From IMG/VR virus record IMGVR_UViG_2579778842_000018, positions 1 through 11,653 of that record: a DNA stretch of 11,653 nt; one strand, written 5' to 3'. The notes under the pieces are model-generated. The model was given only the letters and a program-made list of their open reading frames with translations, had not been told where the DNA came from and did no database searches. A program made the position numbers and the translations under genes. Source of the stretch: a virus. Lineage: Duplodnaviria > Heunggongvirae > Uroviricota > Caudoviricetes. Shown here in pieces: positions 6,159 to 11,653 of this stretch. Numbering within the stretch: the stretch's first letter is position 1; the number at the start of each line of letters is the position of its first letter.

Positions 6159-6177
6159 CAGACCGAGGTAACAAGTT

Positions 6178-7450: not shown

Positions 7451-8388
7451 GCAACAACATCGCAAACATCAACGCACCAGTAGACACAGCAATCGCTGGC
7501 ACTGCTGCAACTATTTTCAGCCCAGACGGCTTGAACCAACTGATGAAATTCGCCGAGGTAATGGCGCAAAGCCGCGTAACGGTACCGGCGCACCTCGCCG
7601 GGAAACCAGCTGATTGCATGGCCGTGGCAATGCAGGCTGCGCAGTGGGGAATGAACCCGTTTGCCGTGGCTCAGAAAACCCATGTTGTGAACGGCACGCT
7701 AGGTTATGAAGCCCAATTAGTAAACGCAGTTATCTCAACAATGTCGCCAACAAAAGATCGCATCAACTACGAGTGGTTCGGGCCGTGGGAACGCGTGATC
7801 GGTAAGTTTGTTGAGAAAACATCCAAAAACGGCAATCCGTATATCGCACCAGGCTGGACTATAAAAGACGAAGAAGGCTGCGGTGTTCGCGTATGGGCAA
7901 CCATGAAGGGAGAGGATCAACCTCGAGTGCTCGAGTTAATGCTGTCTCAGGCACAGGTAAGAAACTCCACACTTTGGGCCAGCGATCCGAAACAACAACT
8001 CGCATACCTTGCGACAAAACGCTGGTCTCGCTTGCACTGTCCTGACGTAATCATGGGCGTCTATACACCTGACGAATTACAGGAAACGGCACCGCGCGTT
8101 GAGCGAGACATTACTCCGCAAACAACTACGGCTGCGGGAATTAATAGTCTGATCAACGCTAAAACAGTGAAAAAGCCTGATGAGCAAACGCGTAAAGCGG
8201 ATAGCCGTGATCCAGAAGAAATGCTGATGGCCTTTACCAGCGCAGCGATGAATTACAGCACTGTCTCCGAACTGGATAAGGCTTACAAATACATTGCACA
8301 AAAACTTTCAGATGATGACGAACTGCTGGCAAAAGCCACCGACGTTTACAGCGTTCGTCGGGAAGAATTAAACGAAACATCTATGTAA
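7447..8388 (+). CDS. Single-strand annealing recombinase (RecT/Bet-like), 313 aa
   Basis: Start overlaps the nuclease stop (ATGA); size and position fit the partner of a phage exonuclease. Family call is from context and general resemblance; exact family (RecT, Bet or ERF) was not resolved. Confidence 0.6.
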   Translation: MSNNIANINAPVDTAIAGTAATIFSPDGLNQLMKFAEVMAQSRVTVPAHLAGKPADCMAVAMQAAQWGMNPFAVAQKTHVVNGTLGYEAQLVNAVISTMSPTKDRINYEWFGPWERVIGKFVEKTSKNGNPYIAPGWTIKDEEGCGVRVWATMKGEDQPRVLELMLSQAQVRNSTLWASDPKQQLAYLATKRWSRLHCPDVIMGVYTPDELQETAPRVERDITPQTTTAAGINSLINAKTVKKPDEQTRKADSRDPEEMLMAFTSAAMNYSTVSELDKAYKYIAQKLSDDDELLAKATDVYSVRREELNETSM

Positions 8389-8437
8389 CCACCACCGCGG
8401 CGCCACGCGCGCCGCACTGCAACCAAGAGAGGTATTT

Positions 8438-8686
8438 ATGAAAGGTGCATTAGGTAAGAAGGAACTCCTGGCGGTGGTGCCACTGTCATGGAGCACTATC
8501 GACCGTATGGAGCGCGCAGGGGAATTTCCTAAACGCTGGTATATCACTGACAAACGCTGCGCATGGAACCGTGACGAAGTTGAGCGTTGGCTTGATGAAC
8601 GTCAGGCAGCAAGCCCGGCAGAGTTCCAAGGTAAAAAGCCTCCTGTTCAGCAACGTGTATATCGTCCTGTGAGCAACGCTGCATGA
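8438..8686 (+). CDS. AlpA-family phage transcriptional regulator / excisionase-like HTH protein, 82 aa
   Basis: Segment ELLAVVPLSWSTIDRMERAGEFPKRWYITDKRCAWNRDEVERWL matches the AlpA HTH pattern. RBS AGAGAGG 5 nt upstream of the ATG. Confidence 0.75.
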   Translation: MKGALGKKELLAVVPLSWSTIDRMERAGEFPKRWYITDKRCAWNRDEVERWLDERQAASPAEFQGKKPPVQQRVYRPVSNAA

Positions 8687-8795
8687 GTGCGCTGCTAAGG
8701 CACTGGAGCAAATGGTCAGGATGGTACTTATTCCTGGCCTCTGTTTCAGCATGGCTTTATCTGCTGGCATTAATTTTCAGAGAGGGTTGGATTAA

Positions 8796-9095
8796 GTGAG
8801 AAAGTTAAGCCGACTTGAAAAATATCACATGAACAAGGTTTCAATGCGCAGTCCGTCAAAGATTGTCGCCGTTACTCCTGCGGCGATAGAGATCGAAAAA
8901 CGCGCGATTGAAAGAGAGAAAAAAGGGCAGTTCCGCATTGCCGCTCACCTTTGGCTTCAGTGTATGGATGTTGCTTCTGGTGATGTTGAGCGTGCAAGGA
9001 TCGCGGTTCGCAGGGACCAATGTATCACAAAAGGTAACGGCCTTCGCCGTGGCGACTATAGCGGCATAGGATGTTGTGGGGTGGTTTATGACTAA
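8796..9095 (+). CDS. PerC-like small transcriptional regulator (putative), 83-99 aa depending on start
   Basis: Segment EKKGQFRIAAHLWLQCMDVASGDVERARIAVRRDQCI resembles the PerC motif (E-KG-WRRAAxxWLxVM...RR..C) as I recall it. Start ambiguous: GTG 8796 (GAGGG upstream), ATG 8829 or ATG 8844. Confidence 0.45.
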   Translation: MRKLSRLEKYHMNKVSMRSPSKIVAVTPAAIEIEKRAIEREKKGQFRIAAHLWLQCMDVASGDVERARIAVRRDQCITKGNGLRRGDYSGIGCCGVVYD

Positions 9096-9738
9096 GAAAT
9101 ACACACTAATCTATGCAGATCCACCCTGGGTATACCGGGACAAAGCCGCAGATGGTAATCGCGGTGCCGGCTTTAAATATCCTGTTATGAGTGTGCTGGA
9201 TATCTGCCGCCTTCCTGTGTGGGATTTGACCGCTGAAAACTGTCTGTTGGCCATGTGGTGGGTGCCAACACAACCACTCGAAGCACTAAAAGTTGTTGAA
9301 GCCTGGGGATTTCGTCTGATGACGATGAAGGGCTTCACGTGGATAAAATGTGGTAGCCGACAACCAGATAAACTGGTTATGGGTATGGGACACATGACTC
9401 GCGCCAATAGTGAAGATTGCCTGTTTGCGGTAAAGGGAAAACTACCTACGCGCATTAATGCAGGGATCGTTCAGTCATTTACCGCACCGCGGCTTGAGCA
9501 TTCAAGAAAACCAGATATCGTTCGTGAAAAACTTGTGCAATTGTTAGGCGATGTTTCTCGCATTGAACTGTTCGCCCGCCAGTCGTCTCATGGCTTCGAT
9601 GTTTGGGGTAATCAGTGCGAAGACCCGGCAGTGCAACTACATCCTGGATACGCGTTGGATATTGGCGGATTAACAAATGCATTCAGCAATGCTCCGCTGT
9701 CACCAACAGACAACCAGGGGCGGGAGCGTGTAGCATGA
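9088..9738 (+). CDS. MT-A70-family DNA N6-adenine methyltransferase (orphan), 216 aa
   Basis: Catalytic DPPW motif in [18 protein letters not shown] near the N-terminus; no adjacent restriction endonuclease gene. ATG at 9088 preferred over the track GTG at 9076. Stop overlaps the phosphatase start (ATGA). Confidence 0.85.
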
Positions 9739-10394
9739 ACCTATATCAACGCATCAATGGCGCTGACTGGTGCAATATCTTCGTCGTCGGCGATCTGCAT
9801 GGGTGCTACACGCTGCTGATGAACGAACTCGACAAAGTTTCATTCGACCCGGCGCGCGATTTGCTTATTTCCGTTGGTGACCTTGTTGACCGCGGCGCTG
9901 AAAACGTCGAATGCCTGGATTTGATTACTATGCCGTGGTTCCGAGCTGTTCGTGGCAACCATGAGCAGATGATGCTGGATGCACTGGTCAACGGCGGAAG
10001 TTTCGGACATTGGATGTCAAACGGCGGTGGATGGTGGCACCAACTTGATTCTGAGCAGGATGTGAAACTCAAATACCTTCTGCCAAAGATTACCAACCTC
10101 CCGATGATTATCGAACTGGTTACCGGCAATAAGAAGGTCGTCATCTGCCACGCAGACTACCCGCACAACGAATACGCATTCGATAAGCCAGTACCGGAAG
10201 AAATGGTGATATGGAATCGTGAGCGGGTTAGCGGCGCGCAGGACGGTATTGTCTCGGAGATAACCGGTGCCGATTTGTTCATCTTCGGTCATACGCCAGC
10301 ACATCACCCACTGGTGTATGCAAACCAGATGTACATCGACACCGGCGCAGTGTTCTGCGGAAATCTGACGCTTACCAAAGTCCAGGAAGGATAG
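9735..10394 (+). CDS. Lambda-type Ser/Thr protein phosphatase (metallophosphatase), 219 aa
   Basis: All three metallophosphatase signatures are present: GDLHG (VVGDLHGCY), GDLVDRG, GNHE. Overall collinear with the phage lambda phosphatase as I recall it. ATG at 9735 overlaps the methyltransferase stop. Confidence 0.9.
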
Positions 10395-10396
10395 AA

Positions 10397-11653
10397 TTAT
10401 TTATTACTGCCTTCCATCCACCTCTCAAACTTCGACGGGGAGAACGGAATCAGATCCGTATGCTCCCCGTTAATCCAGGAATCAATCATATCTGCCCACT
10501 GCTGCAACATGTAGGCGCGCTGTCTGGCGTATTCCGCTTTGTTATATACGGCGCGCACACCTTTCTGCTCATGTGCCAGAGCCTTTTCAATCCAGTCTGA
10601 AGGATAACCAGCCTCATGCAACAACGTACTGGCTGTACGGCGCATATCATGTACAGTGAAGTCCTGAATATGCTCACCATCTTCATTTATTATTTTCACC
10701 GTTCTGTCGATCAGAGAGTTCAGCGCGGCATTAGATAATGGCTTCCGGAAATTGTAACGACCAGGAACCAGATATTCACTTCCACCAGCGCACATCTGCA
10801 ACCCGACCAATATATCCTGTGCCTGTTTAGGCAGGTAAATAACGTGCGCCCGGCTTCCCTTCATGCGGTCTGAAGGAATTGTCCATGTCCATTTTTTAAA
10901 ATCTATTTCGTCCCACGTTGCATTGGTGAATTCGCCCTTACGAACCATAGTGATAAGCACCAGTTTTAAAGCCATTTTCATAGTGCCCATAGCACCAATG
11001 GCATCCAGCGTGCGGAAGAACAGGCCAATTTCTTCTGGTGTCAGTGTTCGCTCTCGTGGTTTAAATATGGCGATAGACGAAGGTTTAATGTCAGCCGCAG
11101 GATTAAACAAACCATGACCACGGTCATTGGCGTGACGGTATACGCTGCTGATAATCTCCCTGGCCTGTACTGCTGTTGCCCGACCACCGCGTTCGACAAT
11201 CCGGTCACACAAATCACGAACCATCGATGTGGTAATTTCAGCCATCATTTTGTTGCCAAGAACCGGAAGTATGTCACGATCGATCACCGCCTGCTTCATT
11301 GCGCGGGTACTGTCAGCCAGGATGACGTGTTTCATATAACTGTCGGTATGTACCGCAAACGTCTCGGCACCACGAATCTTTTTGATACCGTCACGTTTAG
11401 CCGCAGCCGGCGACTGGCCTGCTTTAAGCAGCTTCTTTGCAGCAATCAGTTCTTCTCGCGCTTCTGCTAGGCTGATACCGTCACGCCCATACTGCCCGAT
11501 TACCAGTGTTTCGCGGCGACCGTTGATACGGTAGTCATAGCGAAACGAGACCGTGCCTGACGTAAGCACAGCTACATACAGCCCGTCACGATCGGAGACC
11601 TTGTACAGTTTGTCCTGCGGCTTGAGGTTTTTTAATTTTGTATCGGTAAGCAC
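10397..11653 (-). CDS. Tyrosine site-specific integrase, P4-like family, 418 aa (start at the window edge)
   Basis: N-terminus MLTDTKLKNLKPQDKLYKVSDRDGLYV is typical of P4-type integrases. C-terminal catalytic region has HDMRRTAST (H-x-x-R) and a downstream Tyr in VRAVYNKAEY. First codon is GTG at 11651-11653, so the true start could lie just beyond the window. Confidence 0.9.
   Translation of the reverse strand: MLTDTKLKNLKPQDKLYKVSDRDGLYVAVLTSGTVSFRYDYRINGRRETLVIGQYGRDGISLAEAREELIAAKKLLKAGQSPAAAKRDGIKKIRGAETFAVHTDSYMKHVILADSTRAMKQAVIDRDILPVLGNKMMAEITTSMVRDLCDRIVERGGRATAVQAREIISSVYRHANDRGHGLFNPAADIKPSSIAIFKPRERTLTPEEIGLFFRTLDAIGAMGTMKMALKLVLITMVRKGEFTNATWDEIDFKKWTWTIPSDRMKGSRAHVIYLPKQAQDILVGLQMCAGGSEYLVPGRYNFRKPLSNAALNSLIDRTVKIINEDGEHIQDFTVHDMRRTASTLLHEAGYPSDWIEKALAHEQKGVRAVYNKAEYARQRAYMLQQWADMIDSWINGEHTDLIPFSPSKFERWMEGSNK

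What the first reader, a model, noticed from the sequence alone, without database searches (positions are those of the whole stretch)
8796..10394. Integrase-proximal accessory module: PerC-like regulator, orphan MT-A70 methyltransferase and lambda-type Ser/Thr phosphatase
Three genes with overlapping or abutting reading frames sit at the distal end of the early operon, next to the integrase. The methyltransferase has no partner endonuclease, so it is a candidate anti-restriction or epigenetic factor; the phosphatase and a PerC-like regulator could act on host signalling or virulence regulation. The functions are plausible from family knowledge but unproven for this locus.
Basis: partly seen in the sequence, partly recalled or inferred. 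Interest (0 to 1): 0.45.

Follow-up and report, generated by a model that had tools for sequence, protein, structure and literature searches.

The report
Ordinary phiV10-like prophage early-operon tail
The three genes are real and correctly named, but they are the already-annotated tail of the early operon of a common E. coli prophage (epsilon15/phiV10 type), and only the lambda-type phosphatase is a swapped-in passenger gene.

Summary
Observation confirmed. Window 8796-10394 holds three same-strand genes with overlapping ends. They are a 99-aa PerC-family protein, a 216-aa MT-A70 adenine methyltransferase with an intact DPPW motif, and a 219-aa phosphatase. The phosphatase is 67% identical to lambda phosphatase without gaps, and every catalytic residue I checked is kept. 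A convergent integrase ends 2 nt downstream.

The window is a Uetakevirus (epsilon15/phiV10-like) prophage. This stretch is 98-100% identical to E. coli chromosomes and to phages PAS61 and BP9, which carry the same annotations. About 640 of 5,426 complete E. coli genomes match the methyltransferase/integrase region.

It is not one accessory module:
- **Backbone genes:** the PerC-like gene and the methyltransferase occur across the genus, including Salmonella, Enterobacter and Klebsiella phages.
- **Variable cargo:** only the slot before the integrase changes. About 143 genomes carry the phosphatase. Others carry DUF1382 (as in phiV10) or a hypothetical gene plus Ant.

The genes lie downstream of a promoter flanked by repressor-operator-like palindromes, so they are probably expressed on induction or infection rather than in lysogeny. 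No endonuclease partner was found here or in three other phage contexts.

Verdict: already known and ordinary. Target motif, phosphatase substrates and the PerC-like function remain untested.

The parts
6081..6159 (+). Early-left promoter-like site (TTGACA-17-AATTAT, 6116-6144). It is flanked and overlapped by two ATTACC-N5-GGTAA(T/C) palindromes at 6081-6097 and 6143-6159, which are probably repressor operators.
   Evidence: Promoter scan; repeats; sequence. The same palindrome consensus is annotated as repressor binding sites in epsilon15.
8438..8686 (+). AlpA-family excisionase/regulator, 82 aa. First gene of the translationally coupled chain.
   Evidence: Pfam Phage_AlpA 24.2 bits, cut-off 21. 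PHROG 66, excisionase. Annotated as excisionase in epsilon15.
8683..8799 (+). 38-aa small membrane protein. ATGA overlap with xis.
   Evidence: PHROG 17484, E = 2.6e-27. 82% identical in epsilon15 and Tyrion. dN/dS 0.11-0.16.
8796..9095 (+). PerC-family small regulator, 99 aa. GTG start in a GTGA overlap with the preceding gene.
   Evidence: Pfam PerC 30.1 bits, cut-off 22.6. 40% identity over 60 aa to EPEC PerC. The N-terminal RLEKYH extension is conserved across the genus, which supports the GTG start. PHROG 868, E = 1e-54.
9088..9738 (+). Orphan MT-A70 (beta-class) N6-adenine methyltransferase, 216 aa. The DPPW catalytic motif is at 9118-9129.
   Evidence: Pfam MT-A70, 79 bits, full-length coverage. 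PDB sequence hits: Tetrahymena MTA1 5e-13, METTL3 3e-5. AlphaFold model with pLDDT 86.8 matches METTL3 and MTA1. D11, P13 and W14 are conserved in at least 90% of 54 homologues and P12 in 48 of 54.
9343..9381 (+). Hypervariable, indel-rich loop of the methyltransferase (aa 86-98), between invariant W85/K87 and G99/G101. Candidate specificity or dimer-interface loop.
   Evidence: The E. coli version [13 protein letters not shown] differs from HKTNKHKGNSAI in the Salmonella, Enterobacter and Klebsiella phages. Column entropy and insertions in the 54-sequence alignment.
9735..10394 (+). Lambda-type (NinI-like) Ser/Thr/Tyr protein phosphatase, 219 aa. Signature motifs: GDLHG at 9789-9803, GDLVDRG at 9876-9896, GNHE at 9954-9965.
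   Evidence: Match to 1G5B, E = 1.3e-99. 145 of 217 residues identical, and D20, H22, D49, D52, R53, N75, H76, H139, R162 and H186 are all kept. PHROG 246, NinI-like.
9740..10413 (.). Swapped cargo segment relative to phiV10. It contains the phosphatase body and the last about 5 codons plus the stop of the integrase.
   Evidence: In the pairwise alignment with phiV10, identity ends after ATGAA (9735-9739) and resumes at 10414. Allele survey.
10397..11653 (-). P4-type tyrosine integrase, 418 aa, convergent with the operon.
   Evidence: Pfam Arm-DNA-bind_3, Phage_int_M and Phage_integrase. 99% identical to phiV10 Int. Lies next to guaA in E. coli chromosomes.

Best explanation
The region is the 3' tail of the early-left operon of an epsilon15/phiV10-like (Uetakevirus) prophage. 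That operon appears to be under repressor control. Five genes are chained by overlapping stop and start codons: xis, a 38-aa membrane protein, the PerC-like gene, the MT-A70 methyltransferase and the phosphatase. They are therefore probably made together, when the repressor is lost (induction) or on fresh infection, and not in the stable lysogen. The timing is inferred.

- **Methyltransferase.** It is a stand-alone beta-class N6-adenine methyltransferase with no endonuclease partner. Its most likely job is to methylate replicating phage DNA so that progeny escape host restriction (inferred). The target sequence is unknown. It may be set by a short hypervariable loop (aa 86-98).
- **PerC-like protein.** It is a conserved backbone gene of the genus. 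By analogy with Pch, it most likely relieves H-NS-type silencing or activates phage promoters (inferred).
- **Phosphatase.** It is a catalytically intact lambda NinI-type metallophosphatase. It sits in the variable slot just before the integrase, joined at an ATGA junction. Its relatives lie in lambdoid nin regions, P1, T5-like phages and others. It most likely removes Ser/Thr/Tyr phosphates from host or phage proteins during lytic growth. Its substrates are unknown, as I believe they are for lambda itself.
For: **Identity and commonness**
- The stretch is 98-100% identical to E. coli chromosomes and to phages PAS61 and BP9, with the same annotations.
- The gene order xis, membrane protein, PerC-like gene, methyltransferase, variable slot, convergent integrase recurs in phiV10, epsilon15, Tyrion and BUCT711. 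In epsilon15, Tyrion and BUCT711 a short DUF1317-type gene separates the PerC-like gene from the methyltransferase, and Tyrion adds a wHTH gene. BUCT711 has no separate membrane-protein gene annotated.

**Gene function intact**
- Family hits and catalytic residues are intact.
- dN/dS is 0.08-0.16.

**Expression timing**
- A promoter-like site has operator-like palindromes matching the epsilon15 operator consensus. The scan found no + strand terminator or promoter between 6145 and 10394.
- The genes are joined by overlapping stop and start codons.

**Orphan status**
- No nuclease other than RecE-like and DUF1064 proteins is present in the window.
- None is annotated in the whole PAS61 genome.
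- None lies next to orthologues 67-77% identical in nin-region or lysis-proximal contexts.

**Other support**
- Slot variability.
- Pch acts as an H-NS anti-silencer (PMC4764244).
- The same prophage encodes a Lar-like restriction-alleviation protein. The phage therefore carries at least one other gene type associated with evading restriction.
Against: - No experiment on these proteins was found in the literature searched.
- The methylation target is unknown, and even the choice of DNA rather than RNA as substrate is untested.
- Silence in the lysogen rests on a simple consensus scan and on operator similarity, not on expression data. A weak internal promoter could be missed.
- The anti-silencing role of the PerC-like protein is an analogy from a relative with only 40% identity over 60 residues.
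- The biological role of lambda phosphatase itself is, to my knowledge, unresolved.
Confidence: 0.6

Rival explanations
1. Lysogenic-conversion reading. The three genes act on the host in the lysogen. The PerC-like protein regulates virulence genes such as LEE, the methyltransferase marks the host chromosome epigenetically, and the phosphatase rewires host signalling.
For: - The slot next to the integrase holds a gene annotated as a serotype-conversion gene in epsilon15.
- PerC/Pch relatives do regulate LEE and adhesion (PMC7369912; PMC4764244).
- The prophage occurs in many pathogenic E. coli strains, including ETEC, STEC and APEC.
Against: - The PerC-like gene and the methyltransferase are conserved in phages of Salmonella, Klebsiella and Enterobacter, which as far as I know have no LEE.
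- The genes are translationally coupled to xis, downstream of a promoter with operator-like sites, and no internal promoter was found.
- The same module sits in a lytically propagated phage isolate, PAS61.
Confidence: 0.15
2. The phosphatase is an anti-defence or exclusion factor. It would erase phosphorylation made by host kinase-based defences, or by kinases of competing phages such as the T7 kinase.
For: - It occupies a fast-swapping cargo slot typical of arms-race genes.
- Lambda-type phosphatases occur in 823 phage records of many kinds.
- A phage kinase has been shown to disarm bacterial defences by mass phosphorylation (PMC13645617).
- A phage metallophosphoesterase with an anti-defence role has been reported, though it acts as a DNA-damaging enzyme (PMC12287305).
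Against: - There is no direct evidence.
- There is no hit in PADLOC.
- Expression in the lysogen is doubtful.
- Most related prophages do without it. About 143 genomes carry the phosphatase allele, out of about 640 that match the query spanning the methyltransferase, slot and integrase.
Confidence: 0.1
3. The PerC-like protein is the DNA-targeting partner of the minimal MT-A70 enzyme. The solved relatives need partner subunits: METTL14 for METTL3, and MTA9 in the p1/p2-containing complex for MTA1.
For: - The two genes overlap by 8 nt here.
- The nearest solved relatives were all solved as complexes with partner proteins.
- One assembly even calls a 297-aa PerC+MT-A70 fusion, P0002.
Against: - In epsilon15, Tyrion and BUCT711 other genes (a DUF1317-type gene, plus a wHTH gene in Tyrion) separate the two.
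- Orthologues 67-77% identical sit in lambdoid nin regions or near lysis genes with no PerC-family neighbour.
- The fusion call is most simply a frameshift or gene-calling artefact.
Confidence: 0.05
4. The MT-A70 enzyme methylates RNA (m6A) rather than DNA.
For: - The best structural matches include the mRNA methyltransferase METTL3.
- Some sources name relatives 'N6-adenosine-specific RNA methylase IME4'.
- A review states that some beta-class enzymes act on both DNA and RNA (PMC7544214).
Against: - The closest sequence relative with a structure is the Tetrahymena DNA 6mA enzyme MTA1, at E = 5e-13 against 3e-5 for METTL3. It also gives the lowest rmsd, 2.5-2.9 A.
- The PADLOC type II methyltransferase model hits at E = 2e-78.
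- The IME4 name comes from automatic family labelling.
Confidence: 0.05

Closest known systems
Escherichia phage vB_EcoP_PAS61 (OQ921333) and phage BP9; phiV10-like prophages at guaA in E. coli
   Same: 98-100% DNA identity over 8380-10460. Gene order is identical: xis, small membrane protein, PerC-like gene, methyltransferase, phosphatase, convergent integrase.
   Different: Essentially nothing in this region. The left 1.3-1.8 kb of the window is a different mosaic from any complete E. coli genome searched.
Escherichia phage phiV10 (NC_007804) and Salmonella phage epsilon15 (NC_004775), genus Uetakevirus
   Same: Same operon layout. The methyltransferase is 97% (phiV10) and 78% (epsilon15) identical. 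The PerC-like protein is 100% and 77-78% identical. The integrase is 99% and 87% identical.
   Different: The slot before the integrase holds a 64-aa DUF1382 gene in phiV10 and a 60-aa gene annotated as 'transacetylase repressor' in epsilon15, not a phosphatase. Epsilon15 also has a short extra gene between the PerC-like gene and the methyltransferase, and a 154-nt spacer before the integrase.
Bacteriophage lambda Ser/Thr protein phosphatase (NinI/ORF221, PDB 1G5B)
   Same: 67% identity without gaps over 217 residues. The three PPP signature motifs and all ten catalytic or metal-ligand positions I checked are kept.
   Different: Genomic position. Lambda and phi80-type copies lie in the nin region of the early-right operon, beside NinE and NinG. 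This copy lies at the end of the early-left operon next to the integrase, in a podovirus.
MT-A70 clade of beta-class adenine methyltransferases (METTL3, Tetrahymena MTA1)
   Same: Full-length Pfam match, DPPW motif, and a predicted fold matching METTL3 and MTA1 with Foldseek probability 1.00.
   Different: It is a 216-aa stand-alone protein with no partner subunit gene and no extra domains. It belongs to a very large prokaryotic and phage radiation, with 12,025 clusters at 50% identity. Its target is unknown.
PerC of EPEC plasmid pMAR2 and the Pch proteins of EHEC prophages
   Same: Pfam PerC score above the cut-off, and 40% identity over 60 aa to PerC residues 5-64. It is phage-borne, like the pch genes.
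   Different: Only profile positions 5-50 of 90 are matched. It has a conserved N-terminal extension of about 30 aa and lacks the PerC C-terminal 25 aa or so. It is conserved in phages of hosts that, as far as I know, have no LEE.

Membership tests
MT-A70 family (Pfam PF05063), beta-class N6-adenine methyltransferases | Profile match above the curated cut-off over the whole domain | tested here: met
   79 bits against a cut-off of 23.9. Residues 9-180 match profile positions 1-172 of 172.
MT-A70 family (Pfam PF05063), beta-class N6-adenine methyltransferases | Catalytic motif IV (D/N)PP(W/Y/F) near the N-terminus, ahead of the C-terminal AdoMet-binding part (permuted beta order) | tested here: met
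   DPPW is at residues 11-14. D11, P13 and W14 are kept in at least 90% of 54 homologues and P12 in 48 of 54. It aligns to the DPPW of MTA1.
MT-A70 family (Pfam PF05063), beta-class N6-adenine methyltransferases | MT-A70 fold | tested here: met
   AlphaFold model with pLDDT 86.8. Foldseek probability 1.00 to METTL3 and MTA1, with TM-score 0.61-0.72 and rmsd 2.5-2.9 A over about 180 columns for MTA1.
MT-A70 family (Pfam PF05063), beta-class N6-adenine methyltransferases | AdoMet-dependent m6A formation, and on which substrate and motif | not testable with these tools
   Needs an enzyme assay or methylome sequencing.
Type II restriction-modification system | A cognate restriction endonuclease gene next to the methyltransferase | tested here: not met
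   The neighbours are the PerC-like gene and the phosphatase. The only nuclease-like genes in the window are the RecE-like DUF3799 and DUF1064 genes, which are distant from the methyltransferase. None is annotated in the whole PAS61 genome or beside orthologues in other phages. It is therefore an orphan methyltransferase, despite the PADLOC MTase_II hit.
Lambda-type PPP-family Ser/Thr protein phosphatase (NinI) | Signature motifs GDxHG, GDxVDRG and GNHE | tested here: met
   GDLHG (residues 19-23), GDLVDRG (48-54) and GNHE (74-77).
Lambda-type PPP-family Ser/Thr protein phosphatase (NinI) | Metal-ligand and catalytic residues of lambda phosphatase | tested here: met
   D20, H22, D49, D52, R53, N75, H76, H139, R162 and H186 are all identical at the same numbering.
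Lambda-type PPP-family Ser/Thr protein phosphatase (NinI) | Full-length homology to the solved enzyme | tested here: met
   E = 1.3e-99, residues 1-217 to 1-217 without gaps, 67% identity. It is below the NCBIfam equivalog cut-offs for the chromosomal models PRK11439 and PRK09968 (263 against 326 bits), so it is not one of those chromosomal enzymes.
Lambda-type PPP-family Ser/Thr protein phosphatase (NinI) | Mn2+-dependent phosphoprotein phosphatase activity | not testable with these tools
   Needs a biochemical assay.
PerC family (Pfam PF06069) | Profile match above the curated cut-off | tested here: met
   30.1 bits against a cut-off of 22.6, but only profile positions 5-50 of 90 are matched. 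Genuine PerC scores 143 bits.
PerC family (Pfam PF06069) | Detectable pairwise similarity to EPEC PerC | tested here: met
   40% identity over 60 aa, 38.9 bits. This is weak. A tblastn search of all plasmids at E <= 10 did not list pMAR2.
PerC family (Pfam PF06069) | Activation of LEE1/ler or relief of H-NS silencing | not testable with these tools
   Functional property known for PerC and PchABC (PMC4764244). PchD and PchE behave differently (PMC7369912).
ANR (AraC negative regulator) family, NCBIfam NF033650 | Score above the curated cut-off | tested here: not met
   23.9 bits against a cut-off of 32. Only a hint of a shared helical core.
Uetakevirus (epsilon15-like) early-left operon | Conserved order: repressor, operators, small genes, RecE-like, RecT, xis, membrane protein, PerC-like gene, methyltransferase, variable slot, convergent P4-type integrase | tested here: met
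   The same order is seen in phiV10, PAS61, epsilon15, Tyrion and BUCT711, apart from short extra genes before the methyltransferase in the last three and no separate membrane-protein gene annotated in BUCT711.

The most novel reading that the evidence does not exclude
The position just before the integrase is a dedicated cargo slot of Uetakeviruses. The lambda-type phosphatase placed there would be an arms-race gene that strips Ser/Thr/Tyr phosphates laid down by host kinase-based defences or by kinases of competing phages. That would give lambda-type phage phosphatases a biological role, which to my knowledge has never been established. A second, independent possibility is that the minimal MT-A70 enzyme has a very short or degenerate target, set by its hypervariable loop (aa 86-98), and so gives broad protection against restriction.
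Probability: 0.08. Interest if true: 0.6.

Novelty: already known. Interest (0 to 1): 0.15.

Why it matters
It matters little as a discovery. The genes are already annotated in this way in hundreds of E. coli genomes and in published phage genomes.

The work does sharpen any follow-up:
- It separates backbone genes (the PerC-like gene and the methyltransferase) from true cargo (the phosphatase).
- It fixes the gene starts and the exact boundaries of the swapped segment.
- It shows the genes are probably lytic-phase functions.
- It points out that a methylome test should look at virion DNA or at an expression clone rather than at the lysogen. The test should also allow for a degenerate target, not only a discrete motif.

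Lambda-type phage phosphatases and phage MT-A70 enzymes are very widespread. As far as the literature I searched shows, they are functionally uncharacterised. A common, easily induced E. coli prophage with natural alleles that carry or lack the phosphatase would be a convenient test system.

Tried and rejected
- **First structure prediction.** The first AlphaFold run on the methyltransferase, with 22 close homologues, gave pLDDT 47.7 and was discarded. A 54-sequence alignment that included 50%-identity cluster representatives gave a usable model.
- **Literature.** Searches for experimental work on phiV10 or epsilon15-type methyltransferases, phage MT-A70 enzymes or NinI function found nothing specific. 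M.EcoGII was considered as a relative. It is described as a beta-class enzyme.
- **PerC by database search.** A tblastn search of the PerC-like protein against all plasmids did not recover EPEC perC. Direct pairwise comparison did, but weakly.
- **RNA families.** The Rfam search of the window found nothing.
- **Wrong coordinate transfer.** I first mapped E. coli rl0044 annotation (ArdA, a ParB pseudogene) onto the left end of the window by a coordinate offset. That was wrong. The window's left end is a different mosaic, so no ArdA is claimed.
- **PerC-like protein as a methyltransferase partner.** This idea was rejected on the lack of conserved linkage.
- **Antisense ORFs.** The minus-strand ORFs inside the three genes (for example 9111-9455 and 9806-10144) were treated as by-products of the coding strand and were not pursued.
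Full report
**What is there**

The interval 8796-10394 is filled by three + strand genes.

- 8796-9095 encodes a 99-aa protein that passes the Pfam PerC cut-off (30.1 against 22.6 bits).
- 9088-9738 encodes a 216-aa protein that matches Pfam MT-A70 from end to end (79 bits, profile positions 1-172 of 172). It carries DPPW at residues 11-14.
- 9735-10394 encodes a 219-aa metallophosphatase. It aligns without gaps to the crystallised lambda phosphatase 1G5B (E = 1.3e-99). 145 of 217 residues are identical. All ten catalytic or metal-ligand positions I checked are kept: D20, H22, D49, D52, R53, N75, H76, H139, R162 and H186.

The mechanical ORF starts at GTG 9076 and GTG 9615 are not the real starts of genes 2 and 3. 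Those are ATG 9088 and ATG 9735, as annotated in related records. The extra N-terminal residues (RLEKYH) are conserved at protein level across the genus. Several records, including one PGAP annotation, call the 300-bp version.

The junctions are overlaps: ATGACTAA between genes 1 and 2, and ATGA between genes 2 and 3. The chain continues upstream. The excisionase (8438-8686) overlaps a 38-aa membrane protein (8683-8799) by ATGA, and that gene overlaps the PerC-like gene by GTGA. The integrase (10397-11653, minus strand) converges on the phosphatase with 2 nt between the stop codons.

**Where it comes from**

The stretch 8380-10460 is 100% identical to two E. coli chromosomes and 98-99% identical to many more. 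There it is annotated 'PerC family transcriptional regulator | MT-A70 family methyltransferase | serine/threonine protein phosphatase | integrase', and the prophage lies beside guaA.

It is also 98.3-98.4% identical to the phages PAS61 and BP9. PAS61 is a 39-kb Uetakevirus whose record annotates the phosphatase as NinI. phiV10, the type phage for E. coli, matches everything except the phosphatase.

A query spanning the methyltransferase 3' end, the slot and the integrase 3' end matches 642 of 5,426 complete E. coli genomes. 143 of them cover the phosphatase allele in full. So this is a common, already annotated prophage region.

**It is not one module**

The PerC-like gene has tblastn hits only in Uetakevirus-type phages and in phage-like plasmids. 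These belong to Escherichia, Salmonella, Enterobacter and Klebsiella, at 66-100% identity.

The methyltransferase is 78-97% identical across phiV10, epsilon15, Tyrion and BUCT711. In all of these the order is xis, (membrane protein), PerC-like gene, (DUF1317 with or without a wHTH gene), methyltransferase, one variable gene, convergent integrase.

Only the last position varies:
- the phosphatase in this window;
- a 64-aa DUF1382 gene in phiV10 and in most E. coli prophages sampled;
- a hypothetical gene plus an Ant antirepressor in a few strains;
- small unrelated genes in Tyrion and BUCT711;
- the gene annotated 'serotype conversion: transacetylase repressor' in epsilon15.

Alignment with phiV10 places the swap precisely. 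Identity ends after ATGAA at 9735-9739, which is the shared start codon overlapping the methyltransferase stop. It resumes at 10414, so the last few integrase codons travel with the cargo.

Near-identical phosphatase copies (at least 95%) were found next to the MT-A70 gene in every record listed. Copies at about 79% DNA identity lie in lambdoid nin regions beside NinE and NinG. MT-A70 orthologues 67-77% identical also occur in lambdoid nin regions, between NinB and NinD, and in another phage type near lysis genes. Both enzymes therefore belong to the shared pool of tightly packed early-gene 'extras' of temperate enterobacterial phages. ATGA junctions are reported as typical of lambdoid nin regions (PMC8022706).

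**Are the genes functional?**

Yes, as far as sequence can tell. dN/dS against relatives is 0.12 for the PerC-like gene, 0.08 for the methyltransferase, 0.15 for the phosphatase and 0.11-0.16 for the 38-aa gene.

For the methyltransferase, D11, P13 and W14 of the DPPW motif are conserved in at least 90% of a 54-sequence alignment that reaches down to 38% identity, and P12 is conserved in 48 of 54. A good AlphaFold model (pLDDT 86.8) matches METTL3 and the Tetrahymena DNA 6mA enzyme MTA1 at Foldseek probability 1.00. MTA1 gives the lowest rmsd, 2.5-2.9 A, and the best sequence E-value, 5e-13 against 3e-5 for METTL3.

The family is huge: 12,025 clusters at 50% identity with E <= 0.001.

One feature stands out. 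Residues 86-98 form a high-entropy, indel-rich loop between invariant W85/K87 and G99/G101. This loop is exactly where the E. coli phage enzymes differ from those of the Salmonella, Enterobacter and Klebsiella phages. It is a candidate specificity or dimer-interface loop. That is an inference.

**Orphan status**

No restriction endonuclease candidate lies near the methyltransferase. The window's only nuclease-like genes are the RecE-like DUF3799 exonuclease, paired with RecT, and a DUF1064 protein about 6 kb away on the other strand. The full PAS61 annotation has none. Neither do the other contexts of orthologues. The PADLOC 'MTase_II' hit reflects family similarity, not a complete system. The prophage also encodes a Lar-like restriction-alleviation protein (527-829, minus strand). 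This fits a phage that carries several genes for escaping restriction.

**When are the genes expressed?**

Downstream of the repressor gene (5440-6024) and its terminator-like hairpin (6045-6064) lies a promoter-like site, TTGACA-17-AATTAT, at 6116-6144. Two palindromes bracket it: ATTACCTAACGGGTAAT at 6081-6097 and ATTACCTCAACGGTAAC at 6143-6159. They have the same ATTACC-N5-GGTAAT consensus that the epsilon15 record annotates as repressor binding sites at the equivalent place.

The simple scan finds no + strand terminator and no further + strand promoter between there and 10394. Together with the coupled start codons, this suggests one repressor-controlled early transcript that ends with the three genes. 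On that reading they are lytic-phase functions. This step is inferred from weak pattern scans and has not been shown.

**Most likely mechanism**

On induction or infection the operon is transcribed.
- Xis helps excision.
- The methyltransferase methylates adenines in replicating phage DNA, so that progeny resist restriction in the next host.
- The PerC-like protein most likely counteracts H-NS-type silencing or activates phage promoters. Its relatives, the Pch proteins, activate LEE1 by relieving H-NS silencing (PMC4764244).
- The phosphatase removes phosphates from host or phage proteins.

The identities are close to certain. The roles are inferred.

**Rivals considered**

It is weakened by conservation in phages of hosts that, as far as I know, lack LEE, and by the operon structure.
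- The phosphatase as an anti-defence or anti-kinase factor. This is attractive because of the swapping slot and recent work on the T7 kinase (PMC13645617), but nothing supports it directly.
- The PerC-like protein as a targeting partner of the methyltransferase. The linkage is not conserved.
- RNA rather than DNA as the methylation substrate. The closest relative with a solved structure is a DNA enzyme.

**Novelty and score**

This is already known as annotation and ordinary as biology. The useful residue is a cleaner map (gene starts, swap boundaries, backbone versus cargo) and a better design for the methylome test. The interest score is 0.15.

Noticed in passing
window 527-829 (-): A 100-aa ORF matches Pfam Lar_restr_allev (restriction alleviation protein Lar) at 36.1 bits, cut-off 28.6. 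It is a second restriction-evasion-type gene in the same prophage.
   Followed up: partly
window 4249-4388: Tandem repeats lie inside the DnaT-like replication gene (3837-4688, minus strand): 24 nt x 2.6 copies and 18 nt x 3.8 copies. They are probably origin iterons. The 18-nt unit ATTACCGTTTTCGGTAAC has the same half-sites (ATTACC / GGTAAC) as the putative repressor operators, but with a 6-nt spacer instead of 5.
   Followed up: no
window 6081-6159: An early-left promoter-like site is flanked by two ATTACC-N5-GGTAA(T/C) palindromes. Further copies of the same half-sites occur around 4983-4998 and 5320-5386, in the divergent control region.
   Followed up: partly
window 10392-10399: The phosphatase and the integrase converge, with only 2 nt between their stop codons and no terminator-like hairpin. 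Read-through from the early operon would be antisense to int. Epsilon15 instead has a 154-nt spacer with an annotated RNase III site.
   Followed up: no
L016 3336-4565 (E. coli 2009C_3996): A third allele of the cargo slot: an 82-aa hypothetical gene plus a phage antirepressor Ant, followed by a divergent integrase allele, still beside guaA.
   Followed up: partly
window 9343-9381 (methyltransferase aa 86-98): This hypervariable loop separates the E. coli phage enzymes from those of the Salmonella, Enterobacter and Klebsiella phages, although the rest of the protein is 78-80% identical.
   Followed up: partly
protein P0002: One assembly calls a 297-aa protein that carries both PerC and MT-A70 domains, 97% identical to the window's methyltransferase. 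It is probably a frameshift or gene-calling artefact at the 8-nt overlap.
   Followed up: no
window 1-1800: The left end of the window (an AlpA-like ORF at 1-216, the Lar-like gene, and an Ead/Ea22-like gene at 1328-2107) is a mosaic not found contiguously with the rest in any complete E. coli genome searched. The best whole-window coverage is 85%.
   Followed up: partly
window 8796-9095: The PerC-like protein also gives a sub-threshold hit to the ANR (AraC negative regulator) family (23.9 bits, cut-off 32) over the same core as the PerC match. This hints that the two small-regulator families share a helical core.
   Followed up: no
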